The notes below the pieces were generated by a model. That model searched no databases. It worked only from the letters and a program-made list of their open reading frames with translations, and was not told the origin of the DNA. A stretch of 64,000 bases of DNA from Marsupella aquatica (taxonomy: Eukaryota; Plantae; Marchantiophyta), in the NCBI GenBank assembly GCA_973895155.1, contig OZ316892.1, positions 25,319,233 to 25,383,232 on the forward strand, in the 5' to 3' direction. A program made the position numbers and the translations under genes. Every line of letters starts with the position of its first letter. Within the stretch, counting starts at the first letter, position 1. Below are positions 3,301 to 63,989 of this stretch, piece by piece.

Positions 3301-3876
3301 GGGAGTCCCGGCCTGAGTAGGGTCAGAGCGTACCAAGGAGTGAGAGCCAGAGTCGAGCTTGCTGGGCAAGTGCGAGGCAGGGCTTCGTAGAGACTGGGCA
3401 TCGACTGCCGTTGGGCCTGCTGACCCCCTTTGAAGTCGAGTCAACCATGTAAACTGATGCTTCGCTGAGTAAATGTAGTCTTTTTCCCTTAATGTTTCTG
3501 AGAGTAACTGGTGTTGTGTGTATGCTTTGTCCGGGCAAAGGCGCCATTTTAAGGGACGTACCGGGTGCGGACTAATGGTAGGGATTGCCACTCATTGCAT
3601 GTCACAAGGTCCTGTCACGTCGATGGCTTGAAAAGCCCCAAGTCGGGAGTTAGTCCGCATCACTAACTGAGGGAAAATTCCAGCGGTGGAAAATAAATAT
3701 ACCTATGACAAGTACGAATTATGCGAGTGTTATACCAGTAAGTATAGCGGGTTAGCCCGACTTAGGGCTATTGAAGGTCACTACACACCTCCTTGCCCGA
3801 ACCCTCACCCCTACTGGTGGTCGAGGTCGCACCATGACACTAACCCGGATTTAAGGCCCAGGGTAGGGGTGCGACA
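339..3876 (+). mobile_element. 3538-bp nested insertion, solo-LTR-like (Ty3/gypsy-type ends)
   Basis: Begins TGTGACAC and ends GTGCGACA (imperfect TIR). Perfect 5-bp TSD GTCGT at 334-338 and 3877-3881. Removing it restores the host gag frame (gga ggt cgt ggc gga cat = GGRGGH). No internal LTR pair, PBS or pol seen. Confidence 0.88.
890..2895 (+). pseudogene. Disrupted ORF inside the insert: plant-transposon-protein-like domain, Pro-rich linker, coiled coil
   Basis: ORFs 707-1300, 1372-2601 (frame open from 1147) and 2614-2895 join through one frameshift (probably the C-run ~1239-1244) and one in-frame TAG (2599-2601). First ATG at 890. EICEFISNF...VSGQTLSLTEHRLTQIFGLP resembles the putative plant transposon protein (Transposase_32-type) motif; heptad-rich C-terminus. 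Confidence 0.65.
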
Positions 3877-6800: not shown

Positions 6801-8057
6801 ATACAAACTTTTGCTTAGGCTTACAACTAGAGATCCTACCCATTGGCATAATGCTCCATCAGACAACACAAACCGAAAAGATCCTAAAACAGTTCAATAT
6901 GAACCTAGCACACCCATTGACGTCACCAATGGTTGTACGTTCATTAGAAAACAATACTGATGTTTTTCGCAAGCGCGAAGAACATGAACCACTATTAGGA
7001 CCAGAAACCCCATACCTTTCTGCGATAGGAGCATTAATATATTTAGTAAATCAGATCCAACCAGACATTGCATTTGCAGTTAACTTACTAGCTAGACACA
7101 GTGCAACTCCCACAGCCAGACACTAGAACGGAGTTAAGCACGTATTTAGGTACCTACGTGGCACCACCGATACCGGGTTATTTTACCCATTTGGTGCAAA
7201 CCACGAACTCATAGGATATGCGGATGCCGGATACCTTTCCGACACTGACACCACAAAATCCCAAACCGGATATGTTTTTACTATTGGGGGTACCGCCTTT
7301 TCTTGGAAAAGCGTGAAACAGACCCTAACAGCAACCTCATCGAATCACTCAGAAATCTTAGCTCTACATGAGGCTAGTCGTGAAGCCGTTTGGTTACGAT
7401 CCTTTATAAATCACATCAACACCAAATGCGGCCTACCACCACTAACGAAGCCTACTAACATTTTTGAGGATAACGCAGCATGTGTACAGCAGATCACAAA
7501 AGGATTCATCAAAGGCGATCGCGTGAAGCATATAGCTCTGAAGTTTTTCTACACCCACGAGTTACATGGAAAAGAGATCAACATTTTGCAGATTTCAAGT
7601 GCAGACAACTGTGCGGATCTCTTCACCAAATCACTATCACCATCAGTTCACCACCGACACTGCCAGGCGATTGGACTGCGGAGCGTGCGATGCATGATGA
7701 CCGTGGAGGCTGTTGCTCCACATGATGCTTGATGACGCTGACGACATGATGCTGATGACATGATGTTGACGACCTACTGTTGAGACATATGTTCAAGCTA
7801 GATTTACTATAGCATCTAACTTTACTTAACATTGACATTTATTAAGACAAGGATTGTTAGGCTGCACTCTTTTTCCTTTAGCACTCATATTTTTTCTCTG
7901 CTACACTGGTAGAGTTTTTACTAAGCTAGAGTTGATAAAGGTTTTTAACGAGGCAGTCTACCTCGCTTGTACTTATATCATGTATTTCCTATGAACATGA
8001 TATAATAGGTATAGTCTATGTTGTCTATATAGTTGTCACTATATATCCAAAGGGGAG

Positions 8058-8160
8058 TGTTAGACTCTACCTCCTCTGACCGGACGACCGGACCAGTCGG
8101 TCATCCGACCCCACTATATGTACATACATTCTTGACTATACAGACATTCATTCCATGACA
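8058..8160 (+). repeat. Short 3' LTR (~103 bp) of the Bianca-like copia
   Basis: PPT AAAGGGGAG (8049-8057) is followed directly by TGTTAG...ATGACA; composition turns abruptly AT-rich after 8160. The 5' LTR is not in the window for confirmation. Confidence 0.6.
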
Positions 8161-14489: not shown

Positions 14490-14729
14490 TCTCGTCTCCT
14501 GACTTGTCTGGCCGCCAGCCAAAAAAGAGACATTGATCTCTACAACGAGAGTATAAAGTAGAGAGATTACTCGCTCCAGATTTGTCTGGCCGCCAGTCAG
14601 AACGAGCCATTGATTTCTACAACGGGGACTGGACAGTAAAGAGATTACTCGCTCCTGACTTGTCTGGCAGCCAGCCAAAACGAGACATCGATTTCTACAA
14701 CGAGACTTAAACAAGTGAAGAGATTACTG
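14490..14729. repeat. Tandem repeat, ~79-bp unit x3
   Basis: Recurring CTCG(T)CTCCWGAYTTGTCTGGC..CCAG...GAT(T/C)TCTACAACG...AGAGATTACT. Confidence 0.9.
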
Positions 14730-16250
14730 TAAATTAGATCAAGCAGCTTCTAGGAAATTCCTTGGTCTCGGTCACAAGGTGTAAAATTCCTTGCGGCGCT
14801 TTAGAGTAAGGTCTAAAACGCATCGATGACCGTCCCTTTCAAGCGACTCCACAATTCTGCACGAGTTGCACGAGGGAAATATGGAGTTAGTATCCCGGCC
14901 AGTTCACACGTATCGAGGTGAAGGTATCACAGGCCATCGGGTTGACATGGAAAAATCCCAATTGGTACCTCTCCTCCCCAATCGTCCACCTCACAGCGAC
15001 GTGATTCGGTGTGGGTGTCCGTGTTGGTGCGCTTCACCAAATCCGTAGCGCGTGGGAGTCTATGCTCATGTTATTTAGCTTGTCGTGGCACACAACACGG
15101 AAGAGCAGAGACGCCAGTTTTCGACCACGACTTCGTCCATCACGAACCTGGCCAATTGAAATTCAATCATAGTTACACAATTGTTGCCTTCAGGAGAAAG
15201 AATGGAATCACCAGTGCTTTGGACAAAGTCCTGCAGGATGGCCAAGATGTCTGCCGCATTGGTCCCGTTGAGTCCGATGAAGGCCGCCGAGCGCTTTCGG
15301 AAAAGTTGCTGCTGCATTGGACTTGGCGAAAACGAAGAGCAGATCACACACTACCAACGCAACCGTGATGTTTCCTACATGGGGCTTGTTCGGTGCAGCT
15401 ATACTCGCCAGTGTCATTAAATTACCAACCGTTCATATTGAATAAAGCACACTGTCCACTTTACATGGTCAAAGTTCAGCGATAAGATCCTGACAGTTCA
15501 GGAATCGGCTGTGTGGATTGGATAGTTACCCGCGTTTTGATTCGTCGCGAGATCTTAGAGACGATACTATATACGTGACCTCAAAGGTCGGTGGTGATAC
15601 TGTGAGTTCCCCTCCTTGATCGGATGTATATATATATATTCATGTTTGGGTCTATCTTCTAGAGATCCAAGCGAAGACGATAGCGCATTCAACCTTGAAG
15701 GCGGGTGGTCAGATGTCAGACAGCAGCATATAAAATCTTTCGCTCCTACTTTCCTGCATTCCACTATGTATATGGCCCTCGTCCAAATCTGAAAGAAGGT
15801 CTAGGTTGGAATTGTCACGAGTTTGAAGTGAAGGCCGAATTTCTGTTTTTGTGCACTGATCGAGAAAATAGTACAAACGAACATGTACCTTGGGACATTG
15901 GATGCTCATTGCCAGTCGCAGGCTACCGTCAATTTACCTTCGAGATGCTCTGACTGACCAACTCATTGCCGGCGAGTAACCAGCTGATCAAAGTGTATCG
16001 TCTTCTTATAAGAAGCTTGAGTGGGATCACATCGACAGTTGAATGCCTATTGGAAGTCCGCAATTGTAGTGATTTCACGGATTCGGGTCCATTGAAGAGT
16101 TTTGGGGACGAAGGCAATTCTTACGATCTCGGAGGTCCGTCTAGTGAAGTATTGGGAACAACGGAAGATTCACAGAGCGGGGAGAAGAGGAATCTTACCA
16201 GTGCTGTGAAACCTCTACTGGGGCAGAACGAAGATCGCAGATCAGCAAAA

Positions 16251-18848
16251 ATGGGACTCGACGATTTCTTCGTGTTTCCTCCCGAGAACAGACCGAACAT
16301 CCCCCACGACAAATTCGATTTGGAGATTCCTGTCATTGATATGTCCCCTGTGCTCGAATTAGAGAAGCTGAAGAAGGAATTGGCGGACTTGGAGGAACAA
16401 GGGAAGATGGGGAGTTCCGGTCTCGTAGAACAGATAAGGGCCTGTGAAGTAGCCAAAATTAATGTGCAGAGGGAGATTGGAGATGCTTGTGCGGAGTATG
16501 GTTTCTTCCAGATTGTCAATCACGGTGTTCCCTCTCAACTTTTGAAGCAGCTTGTGAAAAGTTGTCAAAGCGTATTTGCCCTACCAGTCGAGGTACTTTC
16601 AAAACATACATACAGAGCCCATCAAGTGAAGTTGTTCAAATTAAAGAATAATTTTTTTTGAGCCATCCCTGTTTTTCGCAACTTCATATTCTGGAAGAAC
16701 TCAATGAGTAGGCTTTCTCCTACCAATCATCGTTGCTTGTGTTATGTGGGCTTGGAGTTAAGGCTTGTTCCCCTTAATTGGGTGTCTTTGGTCTTGTTGG
16801 CTCTTGGGGCTCAGCAGGTTATTTTAACCTTTTCAATGGTTTATACGTAGGACATAACTAGCAATGATCATGCGAAAGTACTCACTGCGTGAATTTAGTG
16901 AGTTTCCAATCCAAGAGCTTTTCATGATATAATTGTGAGCTTATCCAGTTATCTGATTCAGAAGCGTTTGAATTAATGTCCAGAAAAAGATGAAAGCTGA
17001 GGGAGCGTTTACACCTACTCTAAAGAGTGGATACGGACCCATGACTCGTGTTACTAAATTCTCCATGATCGGGAAATCTCATATTTGGAACGAGGGATTC
17101 GATTTGGAAAGTCCAGAACTCTCACACCCGGGTAGAATGGACGAGGTCGCACGCATTCTGTGGCCGGACGAGCCTGAACAAACTATGCTTGGTCTTCCGT
17201 TAACGTGAGTTACAGGATCAAATTCAAGTATTCATGAATTGTCCCTGTTTTAATCTTACTACCATTCAATGATTTAATTTCTAAGCATGCATGCCCTTTT
17301 GTGTCCCTCTGTTTCTTCTTGATCTCTACCTTTCCAGCTTAATGTTTCTAAGGTTTTAATAAGGTTCTTACTCCGTGCTTTGAGGTTGAGGTACTTTTAT
17401 TCTTCCAATCATTATTATCAAAAATCAGAGCTCAAACTCTTTAATTAGTGGCACTTTAAGGTCCTTCTGAAGGAAGAAATTTGGCAGGCCGGCAGTGAAT
17501 GACAATCTTTTCTGGTGATTACTGCCCATTTGTGAACAGATCTACATCTGAGCAGTGCGGGAAGGAACTGAGCAACGTGACAATATCCGTGCTGAATTTG
17601 ATGGCTAGTAGTCTGGGGCTTCCTGAAGAATCCTTAGAAGAATTACTGGGTCCTGATTTTCAGAATAAGCAGGTTTATGCCCGGGTCCGAATTAACCATT
17701 ATCCACAATGTGTAGAAGCTGAAAAGACCTGGGGATTTCCTGGCCACACGGACTCGAGTTTTATTACTGTTCTACACCAGGATGCTGTGGGGGGCCTTCA
17801 GGTCCGTTTCAAAGATGGGTCCTGGCATGGAGTTCGACCTATAGATGGGGCCTTGGTGATCAATGTCGGCAATTTTCTTCAGGTACTGTCCTTGTCCTGT
17901 CATGAGTTGTGATACTTCACCACATGTGCTGTAAAATTGTCTAAGAATGGTACCCAGTAAAGTCATGCATATGGGTCCTGCACACATCAAGTACCCGTTT
18001 AATCTGTTTCGCGAAGACATTGACATTTCGTGATTTGTATTCTGGACTAGAGATATAGGTCTAAATGGTCAGGAAATATATCTGTGCCTGCTTTCAATCA
18101 GGTGTATACTTTTCTTCGCGTTTCCTGAGTGGACTGTTCATACCATTTAAAGAGATAGGTCTTCCATGCATTATGTTGCTTTCACACTTCAGAGAAATCT
18201 CTCATATTAGCTCCTTAGATTCACAAGCAGTCACATCAGGCTCTTCAAAGCTGGATCGCACTCCTGGCCATGGACAGAGCTACTTGCACCTTATTCCTAA
18301 ACTGGAGCAGTCCCCACTAGATATAATTGTTGTTGAACTTGGGCCTATACTGGTTTCATTTCTGAATTGGCGTTTTTGTGTTGTCAATTCATTTCTTGAC
18401 CATCCATGCTCCATTGAGACGCTGAAAATTCGTACATCTGTGGTACATTCTAGCTAATCTCTGTCAGTGAGATTGATTTTGAGCGTGGTCAATTCGTTGA
18501 CCTTAATTACACTCCTGAAGATCGGAATGTCACAGATTATCTCATTGACAGCTTCCACGTTCATGGCATTTGGTGCAGGTGTGGACCAATCGAAGGTTTC
18601 TCAGTGCAGAGCATCGGGTAGTTACAAACGGCAAAAGTTCTCGTATCTCGGTTGCATATTTTGCACATCGACTAGACAACTTTGTTATTGGCCCATGCCT
18701 ACAGCTAGTGGATGCTGAGCATCCTCCTCGTTACAGGTCATTCACGAAACAGGAGTACTTTGCAAAACTTTTTGCCGACGGTATGGGTAAAGATAGAGAT
18801 GAGTTGCTGGACACGGCTTTTGGAGCCGGTGCACAAACCCTAAGCTGA
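16251..18848 (+). CDS. 2-oxoglutarate/Fe(II)-dependent dioxygenase (DOXC class), 4 exons
   Basis: Exons 16251-16592, 16984-17204, 17540-17882, 18579-18848 with phase-consistent GT-AG introns. Motifs IPVIDM, ACAEYGFFQIVNHGV, NHYPQC, HTD...H (GHTDSS / SAEHRV), RxS (RISVAYF). Confidence 0.93.
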
Positions 18849-20633: not shown

Positions 20634-21084
20634 TGTCACACCATTATAAGTGTAGGATAGTACATCGCGCTACCTAGGTTTGGGCTTTTGTACAAGTGCT
20701 GTCTAGGTATTTAGGGTTTGCATTTGGGGGACAATTATCCCTTTGTGGTGGCTCCACCGGCCATCTTTCAATGTAGAACCTTTCAAGCAAAGCTCTGGTG
20801 CATATGGTGTGGCTGGCCGGGTTGTGGATGTGTATGGAATGTAGAGTCCTTGGAGCGCAAGGTGCATTTGGCCTATATATGTGTGTGATTGTCTTGGGTT
20901 GGATTGGTTATGCATTGAGTTGGCATTTCAGTTGTTGAAGATTATAACATTGTGGTTTTGGGCATGTATGGACATGAATTCCACTTGTATTTCAACTCTT
21001 ATGTTTGTGATCTTGTGTTGTGCCCATGCTTTGTAATGTGTGACAAACAATGTATGTTGTGTAACAATGTCTATCCACACCACA
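20634..21084 (+). mobile_element. Solo LTR (~450 bp) of the same family as the gypsy LTR at 61952-62721
   Basis: Starts TGTCACACCATT and ends ...GTATGTTGTGTAACAATGTCTATCCACACCACA; both ends match the reverse complement of 61952-62721. Flanks TTAGT/TCATT match only 3 of 5. Confidence 0.75.
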
Positions 21085-21479
21085 TCATTTTGAAGAAAAC
21101 AATGTGAAAGCAAAACAGTTCACCTTTTAGACAATGTGGATTGAATGATGCTAATACAATAGTTACTTGAACACCTCTAAGCTGTCTCAAGTAAGAACCA
21201 GGTAAGTAGCATTTGATGTGAATGAAAGTCCACAACCACCTTTCTTGACTCCACCTTGGCCTGTAGTTCCTTTTAAGCCAGTTTCGAGTATTAATACTCT
21301 TGAGATTCTAAGTTCTGGGAGATCTCTTTAGGGTTACTCTTATTATTCTACATTGTAGACGAGCGCAAAGGTGGTCAAATATTATAAACTAACGGCCAAC
21401 AAACACCTGAAAAGAAAGGATCACCAACTCTAGAAAGAAAGGATGGACTAAGAAGAGCACGCATCTGAAATTCAACTTT

Positions 21480-23717: not shown

Positions 23718-23953
23718 AGTGTGAACTCCAATGCTATAGAAAACATGTCTTTTTCCTTCCAGACTTGACATTGGCTTCAGTACTTCGGCACTGCTCTTCC
23801 AGACTTGACATCGGTTTGTAGCTTAAGTGTGAACTCCAATGCTATAGAAAACATGTCCCTTTCCTTCAGTACTTGGGCACCGCTCTTCTAGACTTGACAT
23901 CGGTTTCAGTACTTCGGCACTGCTCTTCCAGACTTGACATCGGTTTGTAGCTT
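23718..23953. repeat. Composite tandem repeat upstream of ORC1
   Basis: AGTGTGAACTCCAATGCTATAGAAAACATGTC x2 interleaved with TTCAGTACTTCGGCACTGCTCTTCCAGACTTGACATCGG x3-4. Confidence 0.85.
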
Positions 23954-24392: not shown

Positions 24393-27300
24393 ATGGCACG
24401 AAAACTAGAGAAATCTGTGAATGTAAAGAATGACCCACAGAAACTGGACACCACTGCAGAGGCAAGGCGGAGTCGTCGAGAGCAGAAGGAGCTGGCAATC
24501 GATGGCACACAGAAGCGCAAAAGTGGCAGACTGAAGAAATTAAAAGGTGATGAACAGGGATTGGGAGAAACAGTAGCAGCTGCAGATGTAAAGGAGACCG
24601 GTCCTACCTCTGAAGAACAGTCCGGTCCTGATATGGTGAAACGCACTAGAGGTAGGCGCAAGAAATCACAGGACGATCCAGTGGAGGAACCTGAAGCAAC
24701 GGCGTATGTGCAGGAGAGCTGCCCCTCACCTCCGTAAGCCTTTTCCGTCTCTTGCGCGCTCTTTCTCCCCTGTCGGAGTTCAAAGAATTGGTCTCTCTGG
24801 TGGATTTTAAACGTATCCTCTAGCATTTGCATTTTCTTTCAGCACTGACTGCGAGATTGTATTCGTAATGGTAGCAATGCCACTTGATTGAATCCCTGTT
24901 TGGTTTGCAACCATGGTGATGGCTCTAATCTTACTTAAACCTTCTGCCAACCTCCCATTGAATGCCATTCATAGCTCTCACTCTGTGGTTTAACTCCATC
25001 GAAAGCTTTTTCCAGAGTAGAAAGGTTTCCCCGCTTTTATATTGTACAGAAAAATGAACATCATTGTATTGTGAACGTCCTCGAAGTCTAGCGTCATTTC
25101 GAGATTCGTAATGTCTCGATGAAATGGACGAAGTGGGCAAAACCCCCAAAAGTTGTCTGGGATGATAATTTACCCCTTCTACAGGCAAGAAGATGCAGAG
25201 CATATGGAGGATCACAAACGAAAACGAGGAAAACCTAAAAAATCAATAAAAACCAAGGAGGAACTCAAGGTAGCTGATGAGATGCAGAGTACACCATCTT
25301 CTGGAGAGGTGCGTGAGGGGGAAAAGCAGAAACGCCAGTCGGGTCGACTAAAGAAGGCAAAACCTGAAAATCAAGAAACGAAATCAGAGGGAAAGCACAG
25401 AGCAGCAAATGGAGGCCCAGAAGTCAATGACAGGCGTAGAAGCAGTAGAGGCAAGGCAAGTGGGAATCAGAAGCCAGCCAGCGGCACCACATCCACAATT
25501 GGTCCGAAGAAGGAAAACCCCAAATCTTCACCTTCAGCTCCGAAGAAGCCAAAAAGGCAGTATCGCACGAAGATTGAATTAGATGGCATTGAATTCCAAG
25601 TAGGGGACGATGTCTACTTAAAGAAGTCCGACGGAGATGGCTCGGAATCAGACACTGAAGTGGAAGATTGCCGCATATGTGGAAACACAAATGAGGAGAT
25701 TATGTTGGAGTGTGACGACTGCTTGGCTGGCTTCCATCTGACTTGCTTGAGTCCACCTTTGGAAAATGTCCCTGAAGGTGATTGGATTTGTCAGTATTGT
25801 GAGAAGGGGGAGACCCCTCCGGAACCAGCGAGCTCTCAGCGAAGGCATCGGTCAGCTCGTGAAAGACTCCTGGCTTGTGACCTCTGGGCAGCTCGGATTG
25901 AACGGTATGCTTTTGCCGAAACACTCTTATCCAAAATCATCCCGTATGTGATTGAAAAGAAGCAATGTACTTGATAGAAACTGATCGAGGATCATGCGCA
26001 GTGCAGGTTGTGGAGAGAAATAGATGGTACGCCCTGGTTCACAGCACATTGGTTTCTCGTGCCCGAAGAGACGGCTTTGGGACGACAGCCGCACAACGGC
26101 AAAAGAGAGCTCTTCCGTTCCAATCGGAGTGATGATAATGAGGTCAGAGTTCTTTAATTCTTTGGCTAAAGTGTCCATTAGACCATCAGTCTCTGTGAGT
26201 TCATAGGACATTCAGCAAATAAACAGAAAAGTAAAGGAATCTACCATCCACAGATCGAGGGACCAGACAGGACAAGGTAGAAAACAAGTTGCCGGACATA
26301 AGGAAAATGAAGTGAGTTGACTAGGGGTTTGCGTTTCAATGAAGGTAATAAACAATAATTCTGATTTGCACAATTGGATGGCGCAGATGGACTCGATTCT
26401 ACGACATTGCTACGTCATGAGTCCGCAAGACTACAAGAATTCCGCTGGGGAGGGGGATGATGTGTTCTTCTGTGAGTACGAGTACAGTGAACAGTGGTGC
26501 AAATTCAAGCGAATCGAATATCTAGACGATAACGTAAGCATACAGTGTTGGACATAAAAGAGATATTTCTTTCTATGGTAGTTACTGGCAATCGTCGTTT
26601 CCGATTGACAAGGTTAGGTTTCTTGTGGTCTTGAGATGAATTGGGTGAATGTCGTCAGATTTGGCACCCAAGTTGCGCTGTGCTCACTCCTGTTCTTCTA
26701 TCGGCATACGTTGCAGTTGCTTGTCGTGTGATGGGCACGTAAATCAATCAATGGCGTCTGATCGTACATTTGGGCTCATCAGGAAAATTGGAGCGAAGAT
26801 GATCAGCCCTATGATCCCCCAGATGAATCGGAGGAGGAAGGTAATGCAGAGGACTCGGGTGGCCGGATAAGGAGGCGTTCTATCCAAGGCAAAAAACTTC
26901 AACCAAGCAAGAGCATAAAAGCCGCAGTATGTCTGAAATCTTTATGTTTCGAAGAAGAACTGTGATCCTTCCCAAAGTTCATTCAAAATACGTAATTAGA
27001 CTTCAAATTGGAGGAGGAATCTGTCGTATCCACATTTCAGTTTTGTCGTAAGAACATTATTGCCATGTTTAATATGCTGACACAACGATTCAAGAATCAA
27101 ATTTATTATGTTGAATTCGTTTGGATTTTCGTCTTAGAGCCTACAAATCTCACATGGGGCAAAGGTGAGAATCTACAAGGAGAATGAGAGCCGAGGTTTG
27201 AATTGAAACTGACTGATGATCCTCATGCTTGTATTAGAATAAGCGTCATAACTATTCGAGAGGGATTGACGAGGTGGGGGCAAAAACTATACCAGACGGT

Positions 27301-36489: not shown

Positions 36490-36530
36490 GAAAGGCTTCT
36501 GACCATATTCATTTATTTTTAAGGTTTCTC

Positions 36531-36672
36531 TCGATATTCCTTTCTCACTTATTTCAAGGTTGACATCAATATTCCTTTCTCACTTTTTCAAGGTTTGACA
36601 TCGATATTCCTGTCCTACTTTTTGCAAGGTTTGACATCGATATTCCTCTCTTCACTTTTTTCAAGCTTTGAC
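36531..36672. repeat. Tandem repeat, ~36-bp unit x4, in the REX4 promoter
   Basis: Unit GATATTCCTTTCTCACTTTTTCAAGGTTTGACATC. Confidence 0.88.
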
Positions 36673-38810: not shown

Positions 38811-41468
38811 GTGAAAGTACTGTCACCTGGGAGAAAACGTATCTCAATTGGATCGAAGGAATGAAATAACCTACTTGTGCACATGGTGCCAGGAGAGGGT
38901 ATGAGGTAGTGCTTACTTGAATCCAAGGAATCCAACAAGACGTGAATGACCACTCGTCATCGAGAGGGGGTTTTCGCTGGAAAGGGGTCCCATGTCAAAG
39001 AATCTGACGTTTGTATTCGATTGATTGTCTCGCCGCAGTCAACAAACGGTGTCAAAAGGCATCGTACGTGTATGAGAGACAAAATTAATTAGGCTCATGA
39101 GCTCATCCCAATGATCCCATCATAATTGGAAACTCTATAACCACGTGTGCTGCCGTGGACTTGCAACAGACATGCGCGTGCGGTGCCACTGTTTGCGTCC
39201 TTTGGGATCTCTTCCTTTCCAGTAGTTCCTTTTAATTTGTTCTTTTCTCTCCAAGTCTCTCCTCGAGTCCGCTTGCTCCATAGCTTCCTACATGGTAAAA
39301 TTCGTAGACGGGACTGTAGATTTTTGGGTGGAATGATAGATTTACGGTGATCACGCGTACCTCACTTCAACGAAATTGGGCCGCCTTGAGCTGAATTCTT
39401 CCGGTTGTAGACGAGTCTTCTCTCCCTCTATGGATATAGCATAGAAATGGAGATTACCAGACTAGAATACGATACTGACTCGCTTTCTGGACTCTACGGT
39501 TTCGTGTAGTAACAGGTTGCTTTGGGTATCTTGAGCTAATTTCTAAGAGCATCTCGACTTGCTTTTTGTAATTTAGGTTTTAATTACTTTGTCACACTAA
39601 AGATGTTTTAATTCATAATATTGTTTGTTATTTTATTTATTTATAAATGTTATTATTTTGTATACTGATAACAAGTTTACCAAGGTAATAGGGAAACTAT
39701 ATATGGAAACCGTGATATTTTTGTAAATTAAAAAAACAATGATAATATTGTAAATTCAGACATCTTTAGTTGCAATGTAGTTAAAAGTTGTTTGTAAGTA
39801 TATAAATATGTTATGTTTTAAATAGAGTTGTGTCCTTGTGTTGCACAACACATAGCGCTAAATGAACATCTAGTTGGAGCTCCCTAGTCTTCTTGGGGTC
39901 TAATACCCTGTCTATTTTGAATTGCAATGTATCCTGCCTGCCCTTCTAGAAGTAGATTGTTGGTCTAGCAGCGTGATATGGCACATGTCCCTGATGGTGG
40001 ACGGACCAAAAGAATCCCAGTGTCTCAAGGTAGGGGATACACACTTAAGAGCCTTCCAAAAATGAACATAAGCCACCACTGTTGACTAATTGAATCATAC
40101 TGACAGTGCCTAAGGACACCAAGCATCTAGAACACAAACCTGGGCTCGAAGGAAATCAGTGAAGCAGTGTGACACAGACCCTAGTTCCCGACCCTGATGA
40201 TGCAATCATCATAAAAGTGGATGCCAGAAGGAAATTTTGCGGATGTTAAAGGTGTTGTTGATGTGGGTGTTGATGCAAACAGTGTTATCAACACCAGGAG
40301 CAAAGCATTGTTTGATTAACCCCAAATGATTAACCTCCCATTGTTTTTTATTTGCTCCACATGCACCCTTTTTGCCTTTAGCCTCACCTCTTTGTCTCTC
40401 CTCTTGCGGAAATAAAATATTGAAAATTGGGTGCATTCAATGTGTTGTCAATGTGCAACGACTCTGTCGGTGAACACAAAAGATTGTGTGCAAAAAAGTG
40501 TCAGGTGTGTGTTGAAAAGAGAAATATTATCTTCCAAGAAAATCTATCAAATAAGAAAAGACAAGTTTAACCAAATCGTGGAATATGCAAGGTAATTCAA
40601 AGAAAATAAAATGAGAAAGGATGCTTAAAGTTAGAATGGGGGGTCAAAAAGAAGAAACGTGGAAGGTTGCCCAAATCACCCAGTTGCACCAATTTCCCCC
40701 CACCTTCAAGAGAGCAGACAAGGTAGGAGGAGGGCTATGCACAGATTCTCCGTGGTCCCATGAATTGGCCCCCACCCCGAAAAGAAAAAAGAAAACAAAA
40801 AGCGCCCCTTCTAACATGAAAAGAGCAGAGAAAGCACGGAAAAAAAACATGTTATTTAACAAAAGCGAATCAAAATCCTTCTCGTCCATAGCAAAGACAT
40901 CCAGAAATCGCTCATGCTTCCCCTGTACCGAAGTAAAGTACAATTAGGTACATGGGTACGAGAAAGTACCTCTATTTATTGGCATAGTACAGCCAACACA
41001 ATTACTTTGTACCCTAGAAGCCAACATATCCCCTTGGGCACTTTCATTTCAGTCAATTCAAGATCGTAACAAAACCGTGGTGGAACTCAATTGACTGCGA
41101 AGTCTTGTTCACTTTTCCAAATGGACTAGTTTTGCCCGAACCCTTACTATAAATATAATTATATCTATGGACAGTATTTTTGGCCTGGCAGTATGTACTG
41201 ATCCAACTTGTCTGTCACAGCACATAGCCGTAATCTCTGTTGCTCTTTCAAATTGTTTAATGACTATAGAGCCCTAATCTCACTTGCTCCTCAAACTGTT
41301 CAGGGCCTACTAGTGCTATGTGCCAACTACAAAAAGTCTAACTATTTAATTGCAATCATAAAATACTCTTCTGGCCAAGTCTAATGTGAAGTCTCTTGGT
41401 TCTCATAGAGTGTATGAATTGGGGGTGCAAGTGGAAAATGTGTATTGGACTCTGTATTGTGACTATAG

Positions 41469-41857
41469 TGTTGAAAATGAATAACACTCAAAATGATGAT
41501 CAATGGATGCAGGCATGATGAAATTATAGCTCAGTGATAGAGCACTATGATGTACACGGGAAATCCTAGATTCAATTCCTAGCCGGTCCATAGTGTTGAA
41601 AGTTGCAACATGATACCAGAGCCAAAGACAGAAATTTCCCTGAAAACAAGTGGCTCAAGGGCGGGTGTTGGAAATGAACCAATTTCCCTTAAGCGAGAGT
41701 GCCTCAATGGAGGGTGTTGGAAATGGACCACACTTGAAGTGATTATGGATGTACATAGGCATGATGGACTTGTAGCTTACCAGCATTAGGATTCTACGTT
41801 GGTACAGCACTACATTCTAGGGTCAATTCCTAGTCCATGTTGTTGGAAGTTCCAACA
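41469..41857 (+). mobile_element. TRIM-like non-autonomous LTR element with tRNA-derived LTRs
   Basis: LTR1 41469-41610 and LTR2 41715-41857 are both TGTTG...CAACA and ~142 bp. PBS-like TGATACCAGAGCCA (2 mismatches to the tRNAiMet PBS TGGTATCAGAGCCA) directly after LTR1; purine tract GGAGGG before LTR2. No intact TSD. Confidence 0.72.
41520..41590 (+). pseudogene. tRNA-like sequence inside LTR1, probably not a functional tRNA
   Basis: A-box TAGCTCAGTGATAGAGC, T-arm/B-box CTAGATTCAATTCCTAG, 3' end CCGGTCCA. Acceptor and anticodon stems are mismatched; loop TGTACAC hints at Val(TAC). Confidence 0.65.
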
Positions 41858-43643
41858 ATCATGTTTCTATCAGTTCAAAGAACATGCGCTCATGCCAGTG
41901 AGGATTAGTTCTGATAGAAAGATTTAATGTGGGGCAGGGTAGTGAATGATTAGTTACCATATAAATATTTCATGTGGGGCAGGTCAACAGATCAATGTAA
42001 GGTCTGACAGTCACCTTAGATGTTTCTGCTTTACCAATTTTGTTCGTGAGGAGGTGATGGAGTGTCTGACATATCCATCCTTCGTAAGTCAAATTACCGG
42101 GCACTTTGCTGTCTGCTGCAGGAGACAGTCTTAGTCACGGCCTCTGATCGATTCCAAGACAATCAACATACGCGAGAAGGAAACGTGACGACTGGTTGAT
42201 TGAGCAGATGACGGTGTCGGACGAGACATCCAAACAAACGGGCATCCAAATTTTGTAAGCTGATTGACGACCGAGTCAATTGATTAGCTCTGCACACCAT
42301 TGAAGGCATTGATGGTCTTCGGTACAAGACTCTGCCCAGGACTGGAGTGTCGAATGTCGACATCACACACAACTTGTGAATGATGATGAATCATTCCCTT
42401 TCACAGTTTCGTGGTACAATTTTAGCGTTCCTGCAACAGATTGATGTACTCAGTACTTACTTCCTATCGTGACCTTGAAATGTGACCACCCCAATGTCTG
42501 ATGAGATCACTCAGTACACATTGTCTATTTCGTCGCCTTCGAGGGAACTATTCGCTGCCATCTTTCGTCGAGTGCTGATTCAGTCTCTTTTGGTGAGTGC
42601 GTAGTCACTGTGAACAAAGTTCTGGCGATGATCAGAGTCCCCGTAGCATGTGGTCGATTCATCTGAGTCTGCAGCAAATTTATGCCGCTGGCGCGCACAA
42701 CTTCTATTAAACCGGTAATTATGTACAAAGGCTCAGCAGCGCATACTTTCCGAAAGTAATTTCATCTGTCAGTAATATTCAAGTTGAGAGCTATTCTATG
42801 TTCCCCGCAGAGAAATTTGGGAAATTTGGGACAAGAATTGATCACAAAATTGTCGATCATTTTCTGACTGCTGAGCAAAGAAAGTGACATAAGTGCATAA
42901 TTAGAAAGGTGCATGATGAATTGCTCGAGTACCAGGACGAGATTACGCTGGTAAGATCGATGCACCGGAGACTGATGAGTGAGCTTGATCGATTGATCGA
43001 CTTACGTGCCGTTTATTTACATCTTTATACAACATTAATTTACAAGACTGACAACTGGACCCAAATATATGTTGTACAAGCTCCCCGTCTGAAAGACGGT
43101 TGTTTCAGCCTAATGAATAGAATTAGAAAACGTTAAAACTACATGGTCCAACGTTATCCGTACTTCTAATTTGTGAGGACCAGACGATAGCTGATCCTTA
43201 CCTCCCTCACTACCTTTTCGACTTGTCGTCATCTACATTTTGTACCACGAAGGATTTGACGTGGGTAACAGACATCCACGGTACATTACTTGAACGATCG
43301 TACCTTTTATCTCATGAGCCGCTCTCGAATTCTCGATCGATCAGCTGTGATCCTTATACAGATTAATCTTCTGCCGTACCTCGCTATTTACACATCTAAG
43401 AATTTCAGCCAGTCAGACATGATGGGTCTCGAACCAATTCCCTTTCTGAGCTAATCTCAGGCTTTGAATGGCTTCGAACGTTGTGGCTGGCCGATTGCAC
43501 AGTCGAACCGCTACGCGCATAGTTCTCTGGTTATCAGGCGTCACTCCGGCGACTATGTGCCATTCGGCGAGCACTTTTGTGGCACTGAGAGGGAGGAGTT
43601 TCTTCTATAGGAATTATCTTGTAGTCGACAGATCATGATATGG

Positions 43644-45412
43644 CTAACTGCTAGCTTGGTCAGCAATTATTGGCTGAGCCCCGGGAATCTTGACAAAATC
43701 CAGAGCGAGCTTGTCTCGGATTCGGTGTCGGTTAGCGCGCAAATTTGCAATAAAATCGGGCCACGTGAAAGGACGATATCTCCGAGGGTGTTGAGCATCC
43801 ACGAGCTCGTCGGGGCTGGAAATGTAGATGTGTCTATTCGGATTCAGAGCGTATATCATTGAAAGACGCCACACCTTTTTCTCCGTGAGAAGAACTTGAT
43901 GTACTGCGCTCTGGTATCTGCCATTGCTCCAAGCCTGGACAAAAGGTAACGTATGGGGAACACGTCAGATTTATTCCCACAAATATCACATACCAATCAA
44001 CTTTTTTGATTCTGGACATTGACACCCTAAAGGTAGCAATGCTCGCACTCGGTAGAAATCTTCTCAACCCACATGAGAATTCCTAAGAAGGATTTCTCAT
44101 GAGAAGAACAGGGAGAGCTCTGCCCCCAGCGAAAAATGGGATTGGAGACACTGTGCACACGAATCTGAGCAGAGGATAGTTTTCAGGCTGATACCGAGTC
44201 CAATCAGGTCTTAGGTGATGACCCACCTCTAAGCAGTCACCAACGTTGACAATAATCGCTCCAGGGGTGGGATTGACGCTGTACCAAACACCATTTTTGC
44301 GCACTTGCAAGCCTCCCACTTCGTCCTGCTGCAACAGCACCAAGACACTCGGGTCTGAATGCGGCCCCACACCAAAGGTCACCGCTTGGGGAGGGCAAGG
44401 TGGGTAGCGGTTGAATCGCCAGGAGCTCTCGAAAGAGGTTTGGTCGTCGAAAGGTTTGGTGAATAACTCTCCCGGAAGGCCTAAGTGCCGAGCAAGCAAA
44501 TCCAGAAGCTGCAGTGATAACTTCTGCATTGCGAGGCTATAATTCGTGACGGAACTTCTGCGAGAAACAGTGCGTCAACGAGTAGAGGTTAGAAAATCAC
44601 CATCCAATGAAGCAAGGGGCATGACAGGGTTTAAAGTCTATGTCAATGAATTAATCAACCTTTTCACGGTCAACCGAAACAAAGCAAAAGCCATTGTACC
44701 TATGCTAATCTCGGGACAACTAAAAATTCGGGCAGCGGTGCAGAGACGCGAGTAAGAGATTTGAGAGACAAGTCAGGGTTGTGCAAACTTCAAGTAAAGC
44801 TTGCAGAGTTCAATGCGCATCTGCACAGTTTGCAAATGAGAAGGGTTATGTGACGTGCACTCACGAGAAAGTTTGCCCCACGGCGTCTCCATCCAGTGGC
44901 CAAATCTTTCTTCGTAAGGTCTCAGCTTCACATGTAGGTGTGTGGTTTCCAGCCAAGTATTCCATCCAAGGTACTCGACTACTCAACCTTTCGTACCTCC
45001 CCCCATACCCAAAATACCTTCCACAGGGATCCGTGGCTCTTTCCTTCAGCTCTACCGGCATGTCTAAGAAGTTCATCCCCACTTGTCGATGAGAGTCTGT
45101 TACCTCTACAGGTACGCCATGATTCAATATCTGGAAAAAACCCCACTCTTCACATGCTTTTCCTACTTCCTTTGCAAGTCTCTCGAGCACGACCGGATCA
45201 CCAGACTCGAGACCCGAGAGATTGATCAGTGGGACTGTGAGCGATTCATCCTTCGCTGGAGTCCACAAGTCGATTCTCTCGTAGTCAGGCCACATGTAGC
45301 GCTCTGGAAGGCGGTCCCGAGGATCTTTCAGCAGACGAGAGACAGTTTGGTGCACATTGTCGGGCCGCATCATGGCAACTTGGACCCCGCCATCTCCCAC
45401 AGCAGGAGGCAT
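43644..45412 (-). CDS. 2-oxoglutarate/Fe(II)-dependent dioxygenase, GA20-oxidase-like, 3 exons
   Basis: Exons 45412-44865, 44557-44227, 43934-43644, phase-consistent. Motifs LPERYMWP, ACEEWGFFQILNHGV, LSSRVPWME (compare GA20ox FSSKLPWKE), NRYPPCP, GPHSDP, WSNGRYQSAVHQV, RLS. Confidence 0.93.
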
Positions 45413-45881
45413 GGCTGATCGTCTTCGACAACTGCGAGGGCCAGAAAACAGAGCCTGAAGCTACAACAGACCCGGCAAAGACGCCCGACTCTGGACAGCT
45501 CGAAAACTCGGACCGGAAGTCGAATGTGGTCAGAGCTCTATGAGTAGAGCATAAATGCAAATTTAAGCACACTCCGCGCTATTGAGAGAGGTGAGAGAGC
45601 AGGCGGAGTCAATGTCCAAGTGGCCACACATTTGAAGTGAGTTTCCAGAAGCGAATTCGTTTGCACAGGTTTGGAGAATTCTCTACAGGGGGATTCTCAT
45701 AACTGCCGAGAGAGAGGCCTACACCATACCAGAGCTTATGCAGAAGGGCACTGAAGGAACAAAACTGAACTCTGGGGACTAAAGCTATGCATTCAAGTAT
45801 TTGTATTCGACGTTGAAAACCCGTGGAGCAGCGGAACTATATATACTGAATTCCCGAGTGACCAGCGGCTTTGTTCAAACC

Positions 45882-60768: not shown

Positions 60769-62050
60769 TTGACATGGTCAACAAGCCTACTGTGTAAATT
60801 TTTCTTGTATGTTCCTGTAGATGTAACCTCAAGAGACACGAATCATGTATCTTTTACGTCGACTACTTCCTTGCTAGATATTTCACATGTATAGGTTGTT
60901 TACGAGTAGCCGTTGTTTACTGAACAATGTATTAATCCTTCTAAAGCTACAAATTTGGCTCTCCATTACTTGAATGCCAGACTAGGAGCTTCAAGATGTC
61001 AATGGGGGGTTGCATCTGTCATTCCATTCGTGTTCACTTACTATGGGACTTTTTCTTATTGTTCTACCCTGACCATCAAAGTCTGGGGTGTTACATGACC
61101 AGTATGTATGAGATTGAGTGCAGGACTGAGTGGTAATTGCTAGGGAGATCCCATTGTCAATATTATTTTTTGCCATGTCTCCCCTACTTGCTATCACGGC
61201 TTTTGTGGGTTGTTTTTCTCGAATGCATGTTTTCCTCCATTGCAGATAATACCCACATTGTGCCACCAATTTCAGTTCTGGGTGATGCATCTACTTTGTA
61301 AACAGACTTGCTCTCCTAGGTTTGTCCATATATTCAATTTTAGGAGTGTGGGGTCTGGTCTCTGCAACCACTCCCTCACCCCTTGGTGTATTCCCATTTT
61401 CAACTAAGGTGGCATGATCAGGGTCAGGATCTTGGCATTTCATTTGGAGATCCAACCTTGGTGCTTGATTTTTTGCAGACTACATGGTTTAAAACATTGA
61501 CCACTTGGTGGCATTAGGGGATGTCCAGACTGTCTGCATGATATAGGTCCAATACTTTGTCTGACCAATCATATATTCTCATGAATGTGTCTCCCACTAA
61601 TATCTTTGTATCCTCGCTCTCTCCATGGACACCGTTGTGATGGAGAGAATTTGGTCACCTTTTTGGCCCGGAAGCCCTTGATGGAGGACACAGTTCTTTT
61701 GCAGCATGGCATGCATCTTTGCCCCATCAGTTGGTGGCATGGGCATTTCATTGGCCATTTCTACTAGTCTAATGCCTAGTTGGAGGGTCACTTGAGGGTT
61801 TAGGGGTGTGATCCACTGAGGGTTTACGGGTGTCAGGATCAGTGTCCAACTAAATGTTCTAAAAGGGTGAGTTTGGGGATGGTGTTCCTTAAGTAAAACC
61901 GTTTGTTGAGCACCTTTGGCTTCACTCACTATATAGGTAAGGCTTGTCTCATGTCGTGCGCATACACATCGCTACACAACATACATCGCTTGTCACATAC
62001 ATCCAAACATAGTCACACTGCCACATCACAAACACAAGAGAATGGAATAC

Positions 62051-62347: not shown

Positions 62348-63034
62348 TGGAATACAAGTGGAACTCATGTCCACACATGTCCAAAACCCACAATAATCTC
62401 AATACAATCGGCACAACGATCCCGGTCAACAATACCCCATCGATCCCGCACCGATCCAATCACATACGTATGTCAAGCCAACGCACCTTGCACTACTCAA
62501 GGAATCCACGTTACACAAGCGGAGCTCACAGCCACCATAGCCACTCAAGCTCCTCTCTCTCCAAGGCTCAACATTGAAAGATGACCTTTCAATGCCTCAC
62601 AAGTGAGAAGTACTCTCTCACACAAACCTGACGGAACCTTATCGGCTTATATAGCACACATACCAAACATACGGATCTAGATAGTACAATACACTCTAAC
62701 ACTACCTAGAATGGTGTGACAGCTGTCGTGCGCATACACATCGCTACACAACATACATCGCTTGTCACATACATCCAAACATAGTCACACTACCACATCA
62801 CAAACACAAGAGAATGGAATACAAGTGGAACTCATGTCCACACATGTCCAAAACCCACAATCGCCCCCCTAGTTGGGAGTAAGGTCCCCTAACTCTAGCT
62901 AGCCATGAGTTCTACAAGGTTGATATACACCTTTTTAGGTGTGAAGATCAGGAGACCGAGTGCAAGTGAGCCCCATCGATCACCTACCTGCAATCCATAT
63001 CTGCCAAGAGAACACAAATGATAACTAGTCGGCT

Positions 63035-63989
63035 TCACCGACACTGAGGACACAACCATGATCCACTAGAAATCACCTGCAATGGTGGTGTCAAACATGA
63101 CATGTGCCATCCTCTAGAACACTTATCACAAATCAACATAGTAGCTGCTCCCTGAGCAGATCCACACAACATACATTTCAAGCCAGCACGAACATGTGCC
63201 AAGCTTGGATCTACTATACCATCAATGTTGGGAAGGTGACATGGTGCACAATTGCGCACATGATCCTTCCAAACCATACCATCACGTCCCTCCAACATCA
63301 GGACACCAGAAGGCAACACTTCACGCACACGTGAGATTGTCCGACCTACGGTCACATCAAGTGTTGTGGGTGTTGTCTGCTGGAAATAAACATAATTACT
63401 AGGATGAAATTGTCGAATGCTTGCACGGTAACCTCCTCCACGAATAGTGGCATACCTCAAAGTATCACGATGTTGGGCAATGGCAAGGTTGTCAAACGCC
63501 ATGGGCATCACTCTCTGAAATACACGTGCTCTCTCTGAACACACCTTGACCCAAACATCAGGATCATCCAAGTTCACAACTGGTGCAACATCACGACAAA
63601 TAGCTGCTAGCAAATCTGGCTCTCTACCATAGAGCAAAAAGTAAGGTGAAAAGGATGCAAGTGATGCTTGCCGACTGAAATGGTAGCCCATAGATGACCA
63701 ACCTGCAAGCCATACTTACACAATCCTCTCTTCACAATTTGCACAACTCTCTCAGCTAATCCATCTACCTCAAGATGATCACGAGAGGTAGTACGATGAT
63801 CAATCAGAGCTTTTCACACAAACTCTCAAACTCTCCACGGAACTCAGTTCCCTGATCAGTCAACACCTCAGCTGGTGCTCCAAAATGACTGAGTACACAA
63901 TCCAAAAATGTAGCAGCAACTCCTCCACTGGATTTATCTGGCAACGCCACTAGCTCAATCCACTTGGAGAAGTGCTCCACCATGACCAA
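63035..63989 (-). pseudogene. Gypsy integrase (core, SH3-like C-terminal domain, PHD finger), disrupted
   Basis: ORFs 63804-63989 and 63035-63691 are separated by a stop and frameshifts. The terminal C4HC3 CMLC...CDKC....H..C...WLCPQC lies at 63038-63175. Confidence 0.88.

What the first reader, a model, noticed from the sequence alone, without database searches (positions are those of the whole stretch)
41469..41857. Miniature LTR element with tRNA-derived Pol III promoter boxes in its LTRs
Seen: two ~142-bp direct repeats bounded by TGTTG/CAACA share AGGCATGATG-G.....TAGCT...CTAG..TCAATTCCTAG...GTCCAT. LTR1 has clear A and B boxes; LTR2 is more rearranged. A Met-PBS-like 14-mer follows LTR1 and a purine tract precedes LTR2, with only 104 bp inside. 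Established: Cassandra TRIMs carry 5S rRNA in their LTRs, and as I recall tRNA-like LTR TRIMs (Helenus) have been reported but are little studied. Inference: a SINE/LTR hybrid transcribed by Pol III and mobilised by LTR-element machinery.
Basis: partly seen in the sequence, partly recalled or inferred. Interest (0 to 1): 0.72.

Follow-up and report, generated by a model that had tools for sequence, protein, structure and literature searches.

The report
Old Helenus mini-retrotransposon in a liverwort
This is an old, decayed copy of a small gene-less jumping element with a tRNA look-alike in each end repeat (the Helenus type described in 2024), in what is likely a leafy liverwort; its family is likely transcribed by RNA polymerase III and likely borrows the enzymes of larger retrotransposons.

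Summary
Two 142/143-nt LTRs (41469-41610, 41715-41857; 101 of 147 aligned columns identical) flank a tRNA-iMet-type primer site (10/12) and a short purine tract. LTR1 holds the only A+B box pair in the window. Public contigs show a multi-copy family: other copies carry the canonical B-box G, end sharply at the LTR end without poly(A), and include a two-LTR copy with a 55-nt interior. The window has no target-site duplication, but a second haplotype reads TATAG right after LTR2, matching the left flank; the window's allele lost it in a 107-nt deletion with filler. The 104-nt interior is a 55-nt unit plus a 49-nt duplication. A neighbouring gene is 87% identical to a Calypogeia fissa protein, so the host is likely a leafy liverwort. 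This fits Helenus (Kojima 2024), whose only listed plant family is from Selaginella; my paper searches found no bryophyte report, and Repbase was not searchable. This copy is about 15-18 million years old at a borrowed rate, and both promoters are damaged. Pol III transcription and the helper element are inferred. This scan already noted a Helenus element on another piece of this genome. Verdict: new member of a known kind, in a new host group.

The parts
41464..41468 (+). Left target-site duplication TATAG
   Evidence: The same 5 letters follow LTR2 in the second haplotype of runs X3 and X4 (table 7).
41469..41610 (+). LTR1 (142 nt), TGTTG...CAACA
   Evidence: Family contigs end at 41610 with unlike flanks (table 7).
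41520..41590 (+). tRNA-like domain in LTR1, 51 nt from the LTR start and 20 nt from its end; acceptor stem broken in this copy
   Evidence: Rfam tRNA 18.7 bits at 41527-41582. No stable fold, z 0.03. Bounds inferred from tRNA numbering.
41527..41537 (+). A box of LTR1, last G changed to A
   Evidence: Helenus A-box motifs TRGCY and YGG (PMC10886601).
41569..41579 (+). B box of LTR1, with A at 41570 where other copies carry G
   Evidence: G read at 91-93% of summed contig depth in 4 of 4 runs (table 3).
41611..41622 (+). Primer-binding site, tRNA-iMet 3'-end type, directly after the LTR; 2 mismatches in 12
   Evidence: Motif as printed for Cassandra and close to that of Helenus-1_SMo.
41611..41665 (+). 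First internal unit (55 nt), ending in a purine tract at 41657-41665; same length as the interior of a complete copy elsewhere
   Evidence: Joint 41628 to 41527 with 95 letters between (37 interior + 58 LTR start) in 3 of 4 runs (table 5).
41666..41681 (+). Stub of an LTR start (15 of 16 letters as LTR2's start, 13 of 16 as LTR1's)
41681..41714 (+). Second, partial internal unit ending in the purine tract used by LTR2 (41706-41714)
   Evidence: D4/D18; (41633-41680 against 41681-41729: 40 of 48 identical, K2P 0.19).
41715..41857 (+). LTR2 (143 nt); A-box region and middle rearranged, B box at 41820-41830 with one change, 4-nt deletion after it
   Evidence: Family contigs cover only its first 37 nt at 80% or more (table 2).
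41841..41857 (+). 17-nt near-palindrome closing LTR2: a copy of the LTR's first 8 nt, one spacer base, then their inverse (decayed twin at 41594-41610)
   Evidence: Read. Not kept in the other subfamily ends printed, table 7.
41858..41874 (+). 17-nt filler that replaces 107 nt (including the right TSD) in the window's haplotype
   Evidence: Joint 41857 to 41875 with 107 letters between in X3 and X4. 13 nt of it are an inverted copy of 41911-41923, 92% complementary (I5).

Best explanation
This is an old, decayed insertion of a multi-copy, non-coding mini LTR retrotransposon (TRIM) of the Helenus type, with a tRNA-derived stretch in each LTR, in what is likely a leafy liverwort; intact family members are likely transcribed by RNA polymerase III from the A/B boxes and likely copied and inserted by the enzymes of an autonomous LTR retrotransposon. 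Shown: two LTRs, PBS, short purine tract, 5-bp TSD in a second haplotype, many other copies, and a complete two-LTR copy of about 339 nt (142+55+142) elsewhere. Inferred steps: (1) TFIIIC binds the boxes in the 5' LTR and Pol III starts near the tRNA-like 5' end (about 41520). (2) With no run of 4 or more T on this strand inside the element, the transcript can run through the PBS and interior into the 3' LTR, so the tRNA-like part forms the repeated R region. (3) The RNA is packaged by a helper, primed by tRNA-iMet at the PBS, reverse-transcribed with the usual two strand transfers, and integrated with a 5-bp duplication; a Copia helper is somewhat more likely than Gypsy. This copy is probably inactive: the LTRs differ by K2P 0.28-0.34, both promoters and the PBS are hit, the interior is partly duplicated, and the window's haplotype lost the right TSD in a deletion repaired with templated filler.
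For: LTR pair beyond chance. Unique A+B pair. Weak tRNA model match with D- and T-arm pairing. PBS 10/12 directly after CA. Depth over 41572-41615 is about 70-115 times that of the flanks in 4 of 4 runs (the tool warns that this is no copy number). Other copies read G at 41570 (91-93% of depth) and at 41562/41563. 5' loose ends show the same upstream LTR sequence followed by a GGG-started tRNA acceptor strand. Joint 41628 to 41527 with exactly 95 letters in 3 of 4 runs. TATAG follows LTR2 in 2 of the 4 runs laid (X3, X4, one study; X1 matches the window, X5 laid nothing; chance about 0.0015). No T4 run between 41469 and 42037. Layout, size, iMet PBS and 5-bp TSD as in Helenus-1_SMo. Host: neighbouring dioxygenase exon 87% identical to Calypogeia fissa and 67-69% to Marchantia and Riccia.
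Against: No expression data, so Pol III transcription is untested; Kojima says it is unvalidated for Helenus too. The tRNA match is below Rfam's gathering score and LTR1's domain does not fold as a tRNA. LTR2's A box is not recognisable. The LTRs are only 69% alike, far below the 85% or more of most sugar beet families, so a mosaic history cannot be excluded. The purine tract is weak. No helper was found: the window's Copia (3867-7732) shows no similarity to the element and no PBS match of its own. The TSD evidence comes from one study.
Confidence: 0.82

Rival explanations
1. It is an ordinary Pol II TRIM that once captured a tRNA or SINE fragment in its LTR; the boxes are passengers and transcription starts from the upstream part of the LTR or by read-through.
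For: No transcript evidence. Both boxes of this copy are hit. The 51 nt upstream of the tRNA-like part are shared across copies (loose ends).
Against: Other copies keep the canonical B-box G at 91-93% of depth and a GGG-started acceptor strand. The LTR region around the B box is more alike between the two LTRs (K2P 0.18 +- 0.07) than the 5' part (0.35 +- 0.10), though the errors overlap. I saw no TATA-like box in the 51 nt (by eye).
Confidence: 0.1
2. The locus is a collapsed three-LTR tandem array (L3I2) or a mosaic of two subfamilies, so the LTR difference reflects two templates, not age. This concerns the history of this copy, not its class.
For: Interior unit + LTR stub + partial interior is what a deleted L3I2 array would leave. 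L3I2 is the commonest tandem TRIM form in maize (63 of 93). The two interior units differ by 17%, more than the two haplotypes (about 4-7%, table 8), yet one X3 contig has a single interior of about 49 nt (joint 41628 to 41709, 25 letters between). LTR2's middle matches almost no other copy at 80%.
Against: One TSD brackets the whole stretch. Both LTR1 and the start of LTR2 sit at roughly 80-90% to other copies, as an old single insertion predicts. A simple 49-nt duplication needs one event, and short tandem duplications are common nearby (D3).
Confidence: 0.25
3. The tRNA-like domain works as a folded RNA: tRNA-processing nucleases cut it and so define the ends of the transposition RNA, whichever polymerase makes it.
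For: Other copies appear to keep the acceptor and T-stems (5' loose ends and B-box letters). The T-stems of this family and of Helenus-1_SMo both pair while differing at two pairs (by eye). No T4 terminator inside the element.
Against: No alignment of copies was available, so covariation is untested. The anticodon region of LTR1 is one base short and unpaired. Cutting in both LTRs would remove the terminal redundancy needed for strand transfer (inference). No ribozyme family matched 41000-42300 at E up to 10.
Confidence: 0.07
4. Two neighbouring tRNA-derived SINEs or tRNA pseudogenes that mimic an LTR pair by chance.
For: The LTRs are only 69% alike; the window shows no TSD.
Against: The tRNA-like part lies inside the repeat, not at its head. 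Copies end sharply at CAACA with no A-tail in the consensus, a two-LTR copy exists elsewhere, a PBS abuts LTR1, and a 5-bp TSD brackets both repeats.
Confidence: 0.01

Closest known systems
Helenus-1_SMo, Selaginella moellendorffii (Kojima 2024, PMC10886601; main text parts 1-5 of 6 read, supplement searched by terms)
   Same: Two short LTRs starting TGTT and ending CAACA; tRNA-like stretch inside the LTR, near its 3' end; iMet 3'-end PBS directly after the LTR; 5-bp TSD; similar size (325 nt against about 339). By eye, 23 of 31 letters from variable loop to discriminator match LTR1 (26 of 31 with the letters that other copies carry at 41562, 41563 and 41570).
   Different: Host (likely liverwort, against lycophyte). 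LTR 142 against 120 nt, interior 55 against 85 nt. No similarity seen by eye outside the tRNA-like part, PBS and termini. Helenus-1_SMo has a T4 run near the LTR end, and this element has none. Weaker purine tract here.
Fungal and animal Helenus (same paper)
   Same: tRNA-derived A/B boxes in TRIM LTRs; solo LTRs and tandem arrays occur; fungal ones make 5-bp TSDs and are linked to Copia.
   Different: Most fungal families prime on a tRNA anticodon loop. Animal ones make 4-bp TSDs and are linked to Gypsy.
Cassandra TRIM (PMC7215508, passages; Kalendar 2008 not held, known here only through Kojima's description)
   Same: Plant TRIM with a Pol III promoter in the LTR, the same iMet PBS motif, and tandem arrays.
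   Different: Cassandra carries 5S rRNA (boxes A and C), is reported from vascular plants, and has transcript evidence. No 5S match here.
Ordinary plant TRIMs and tandem-array TRIMs (Gao et al. 2016, PMC4717578; passages and section 8)
   Same: Short non-coding LTR elements with PBS, PPT and 5-bp TSD; L3I2 arrays.
   Different: No tRNA-derived LTR is described in the passages seen. That survey of 48 genomes found no TRIM in Physcomitrella, and the word Marchantia does not occur in its text.

Membership tests
Helenus (TRIMp3) | Two LTRs, non-coding, short (311-1263 nt reported) | tested here: met
   389 nt here, about 339 nt for the complete copy. No ORF of 70 aa or more overlaps it.
Helenus (TRIMp3) | tRNA-like sequence in the LTR with A box (TRGCY, YGG) and B box (GGTTC) | tested here: met
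   LTR1 has each box with one mismatch and a weak Rfam tRNA match. Other copies restore the B-box G. LTR2 keeps TAGCT and a one-mismatch B box. The family's letter at 41537 was not printed in table 3; one loose end there (X3, 41751) reads TGG at the matching place.
Helenus (TRIMp3) | PBS just inside the 5' LTR | tested here: met
   10 of 12 to the iMet PBS motif at 41611. Other contigs align through 41628 (table 8); their PBS letters were not printed.
Helenus (TRIMp3) | Polypurine tract before the 3' LTR | tested here: inconclusive
   8 of 9 purines abut both the stub and LTR2, but only 9-10 of 15 over a longer stretch.
Helenus (TRIMp3) | 5-bp TSD (plant and fungal families) | tested here: met
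   Absent from the window's haplotype, present (TATAG) in the second haplotype of X3 and X4, one study. The left TATAG is read from the window; no variant row was listed there for the second haplotype, but that table was cut.
Helenus (TRIMp3) | Dispersed multi-copy family with full-length copies and single LTR ends | tested here: met
   tables 2, 5, 7, 8. TSDs of the other copies could not be read.
Helenus (TRIMp3) | Transcription by RNA polymerase III | not testable with these tools
   Needs RNA-end mapping or ChIP; also unvalidated for the published Helenus families.
Helenus (TRIMp3) | Mobilisation in trans by an autonomous LTR retrotransposon | tested here: inconclusive
   PBS and TSD imply it. 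No shared sequence with the one Copia in the window; no genome was held to search further.
Cassandra / Ajax | 5S rRNA-derived sequence in the LTR | tested here: not met
   No 5S match in 41000-42300 at E up to 10.
tRNA-derived SINE (SINE2) | tRNA head at the 5' end, A-rich or simple-repeat tail, no LTR/PBS | tested here: not met
   The tRNA part starts 51 nt inside the repeat; ends are sharp at CAACA with unlike flanks; PBS and two-LTR copies are present.
Functional tRNA gene | Complete cloverleaf | tested here: not met
   ARAGORN 0 genes; 18.7 bits; fold z 0.03. Other copies were not tested.
LTR retrozyme | Self-cleaving ribozyme in the LTR | tested here: not met
   No ribozyme family among the 3 Rfam matches at E up to 10; a decayed copy could hide one.

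The most novel reading that the evidence does not exclude
Liverwort and Selaginella Helenus descend from one tRNA-Ala-like LTR capture in the common ancestor of bryophytes and vascular plants. That would make plant Helenus a Pol III-driven TRIM lineage older than Cassandra that has tracked iMet-primed helpers for over 400 million years, with the tRNA acceptor and T-stems kept under selection. Leads: same layout and primer type, G3-U70 and A73 in both (the alanine identity mark, recalled), paired T-stems with different letters. Against: these letters are common to many tRNAs, nothing else is alike, and Kojima favours repeated origins.
Probability: 0.2. Interest if true: 0.6.

Novelty: new member of a known kind. 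Interest (0 to 1): 0.36.

Why it matters
It extends tRNA-bearing TRIMs from one plant (Selaginella, the only Viridiplantae row in Kojima's Table S1) to what is likely a liverwort, a group where my searches found no such report. A multi-copy family of tRNA look-alikes can inflate tRNA gene counts, as Kojima showed for rust fungi, and scatters Pol III promoters near genes; this copy lies about 1.8 kb beyond the likely 3' end of a dioxygenase gene. Liverworts would be a practical place to test whether Helenus is a Pol III transcript, which is still open. The copy itself is decayed, the class is published, and this scan has already noted the class in this genome and in other hosts, so the gain is modest.

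Tried and rejected
No whole genome was held, so copies could not be collected, aligned or dated. Run search: 6 holders listed, no RNA holder listed; this says nothing on expression. A pattern scan of metagenome contigs for B box ... CA + PBS gave 2 loci; neither shows a second LTR or TGTT/CAACA ends on reading, and both look prokaryotic, so I treat them as chance. Viral contigs and genome contigs were not scanned. Rfam matches to Moco riboswitch and snoRNA sR3 (E 2.4, 1.2) are rejected as chance. The LTR2 hairpin (z -3.0, 1 of 200 shuffles) is not a cloverleaf and lies where the two haplotypes differ by indels, so I do not read function into it. G-to-A hypermutation of LTR1: 11 sites with A in LTR1 and G in LTR2 against 4 the other way; one-sided binomial about 0.06 by hand, not supported. 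The window's Copia as helper: no shared sequence, no PBS within 2 mismatches at its start. A search of earlier scan notes by sequence gave 0 look-alikes. Kalendar 2008 was not held. Passages of bioRxiv 2025.01.16.633329, PMC9985172 and PMC12513842 name no TRIM in liverworts; their supplements were not read and could hold repeat libraries. Repbase and Dfam could not be searched. The comparison with Helenus-1_SMo is by eye only.

Full report
Observation. The window holds two direct repeats, 41469-41610 (142 nt) and 41715-41857 (143 nt), each TGTTG...CAACA, with 104 nt between. Slightly longer stretches around them align at 68.9% over 148 columns (blastn E 4e-8), with a global score of 100 against a mean of -29 and a maximum of 16 in 1000 shuffles. 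At the exact bounds 101 of 147 columns are identical, with 23 transitions and 14 transversions. LTR1 has an A box (41527-41537) and a B box (41569-41579), each one letter off the pattern I used (a recalled consensus). It is the only such pair on either strand of the 64 kb; resampled windows give 0.067 pairs on average (60 rounds). Rfam's tRNA model matches 41527-41582 at 18.7 bits, under the gathering score of 29. ARAGORN calls nothing, and the stretch folds no better than shuffles. The 12 nt after LTR1 match the plant iMet PBS motif at 10 of 12 (the motif is printed in PMC7215508). The purine tract is short. The window shows no TSD.

The interior contains a 49-nt tandem duplication (40 of 48 identical): a 55-nt unit ending in a purine tract, 15-16 nt of an LTR start, then a second partial unit and LTR2. 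And the right flank is a repair scar (below).

Host. ORFs in the window include a broken Copia pol, zf-RVT (LINE-type) fragments, PHD exons and 2OG dioxygenases (17 ORFs scanned). The dioxygenase exon at 44864-45415 is 87% identical to a Calypogeia fissa protein and 67-69% to Marchantia and Riccia proteins (7 hits among 1227 candidates, longer proteins only). The host is likely a leafy liverwort. No genome was held.

Family evidence. Six public runs were listed, four holding half or more of the sampled words. Four were laid on 41000-42300 at 80%: two samples each from two studies, and X1 may be the window's source. Summed contig depth over 41572-41615 is about 70-115 times that of the flanks in all four; the tool warns that this is no copy number. 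At 41570 other copies read G in 91-93% of depth, which gives the GGTTC that Kojima reports for Helenus B boxes. Loose ends before 41527 show the same upstream LTR sequence followed by a GGG-started acceptor strand. Ten contigs in each of X1, X3 and X4 stop at 41610 and continue in unlike sequence (agreement 0.43, no A-tail in the consensus; the table was cut, 184 rows not shown). Others continue through the PBS region to 41628. One contig in each of X1, X2 and X3 runs LTR end, PBS region, 95 other letters, then the tRNA-like part again. 95 equals 37 remaining interior letters plus 58 LTR-start letters, so a complete two-LTR copy with a 55-nt interior (about 339 nt) exists elsewhere. This excludes the SINE reading.

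TSD. X3 and X4 carry a second haplotype, about 4-7% diverged (for example 14 differences in 337 nt and 10 in 208, table 8), with 107 letters in place of 41858-41874. Laying 41756-41886 showed these letters begin TATAG in both runs, the same five that precede LTR1 (chance about 0.0015). X1 matched the window and X5 laid nothing. So one 5-bp TSD brackets the whole 389 nt, on the evidence of one study. In the window's haplotype 107 nt were replaced by 17, of which 13 are an inverted copy of 41911-41923 (I5). Templated filler of this kind is typical of end-joining repair (recalled).

Age. K2P between the LTRs is 0.34 +- 0.06 overall and 0.28 +- 0.06 without the rearranged middle. At 9.4e-9 per site per year, the rate used in a bryophyte genome survey (PMC12513842, passage), that gives about 15-18 million years. 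The rate is borrowed and rearrangement inflates K. The insertion predates the haplotype split. The interior duplication is harder to place. Its units differ more (17%) than the haplotypes do, yet one X3 contig has a single interior of about 49 nt (joint 41628 to 41709; not seen in X4). Either the duplication is old and was lost in that haplotype, or one unit came from another copy or from a collapsed three-LTR array, a common TRIM form (PMC4717578, section 8). I could not decide this.

Mechanism. Shown: LTR-PBS-interior-LTR anatomy, TSD, dispersed copies. Inferred: Pol III starts near 41520 under the internal boxes. No run of 4 T lies on this strand until 42038, so the transcript could cover the PBS, the interior and the 3' LTR. 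A helper's reverse transcriptase would prime with tRNA-iMet and its integrase would make the 5-bp duplication. Kojima links 5-bp-TSD fungal Helenus to Copia; plant Gypsy elements can also use iMet and 5-bp TSDs (recalled), so the helper is open. The window's Copia shares no sequence with the element. I put the class at about 0.95 and the Pol III mechanism at about 0.8. There is no expression evidence either way.

Comparison. Kojima 2024 (PMC10886601; parts 1-5 of 6 read; supplement searched by terms) defines Helenus by exactly these features and lists one plant family, Helenus-1_SMo (LTR 120, interior 85, 5-bp TSD). Its screen started from Repbase and went to related genomes; Marchantia, Physcomitrella and Calypogeia do not occur in the supplement text. 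By eye, this element shares layout, termini, primer type and 23 of 31 letters of the 3' half of the tRNA-like part with Helenus-1_SMo, and nothing else. All testable membership features are met except the purine tract and the helper (both inconclusive). A whole-word search for Helenus and retrotransposon since 2023 gave 5 papers, 4 listed. I saw passages of PMC13570524 and PMC12859917, which only cite it, and only the listing of PMC10946416. Searches pairing liverwort with TRIM or tRNA-like LTR terms gave nothing relevant. Repbase, Dfam, subscription journals and the supplements of the liverwort genome papers were out of reach.

Novelty and verdict. A new member of a known, little-studied kind, in a plant group not reported for it in what I could search. 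An earlier, unreviewed note of this scan describes a 332-nt Helenus on another piece of the same genome; I had reached the reading before seeing it and did not test that locus. Other notes place the class in further hosts. The boldest open reading is a single origin shared with Selaginella (probability about 0.2). Interest 0.36.

Noticed in passing
window 41339-41903: One X3 contig joins 41339 to 41903, skipping 563 nt including the element (letters between not known; shorter side 33). Small depth bumps lie at 41308-41351 (X3, X4) and 41880-41923 (X1, X3, X4). The element may sit in a low-copy repeat whose other copy is empty.
   Followed up: no
window 41841-41857 and 41594-41610: Each LTR ends in a 17-nt near-palindrome made of the LTR's own first 8 nt and their inverse. 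LTR1 has the same G-to-A difference at both its start and this inner copy. Other subfamily ends printed lack the full palindrome.
   Followed up: partly
window 41000-42300: Runs X3 and X4 hold two haplotypes of this region at comparable depth, one matching the window and one about 4-7% diverged; X1 and X2 show only the window's. This fits a hybrid or polyploid plant or a mixed sample.
   Followed up: no
window 3867-8160: Broken Copia pol (Pol_BBD, gag_pre-integrase, rve, RVT_2), followed by a purine tract and a TGTTAG-started likely 3' LTR near 8058. Its 5' end seems replaced by another GC-rich element.
   Followed up: partly
window 43644-45460 (-) and 15954-16661 (+): Two 2OG-Fe(II) dioxygenase genes or fragments. 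The first is closest to Calypogeia fissa and to MpDOXC22 of Marchantia.
   Followed up: partly
window 25123-25974 (+) and 63035-63715 (-): Two PHD-finger ORFs. The first looks like the BAH-PHD start of plant ORC1 (likeness recalled, not tested).
   Followed up: no
window 14491-14728, 23718-23953, 36516-36672, 41903-41983: Several short, diverged tandem duplications (units of about 45-108 nt), so such duplications are common in this region.
   Followed up: no
window 20949-21085, 61951-62050, 62348-62394, 62724-62861: A dispersed repeat with copies on both strands, two of them 99% alike over 99 nt.
   Followed up: no
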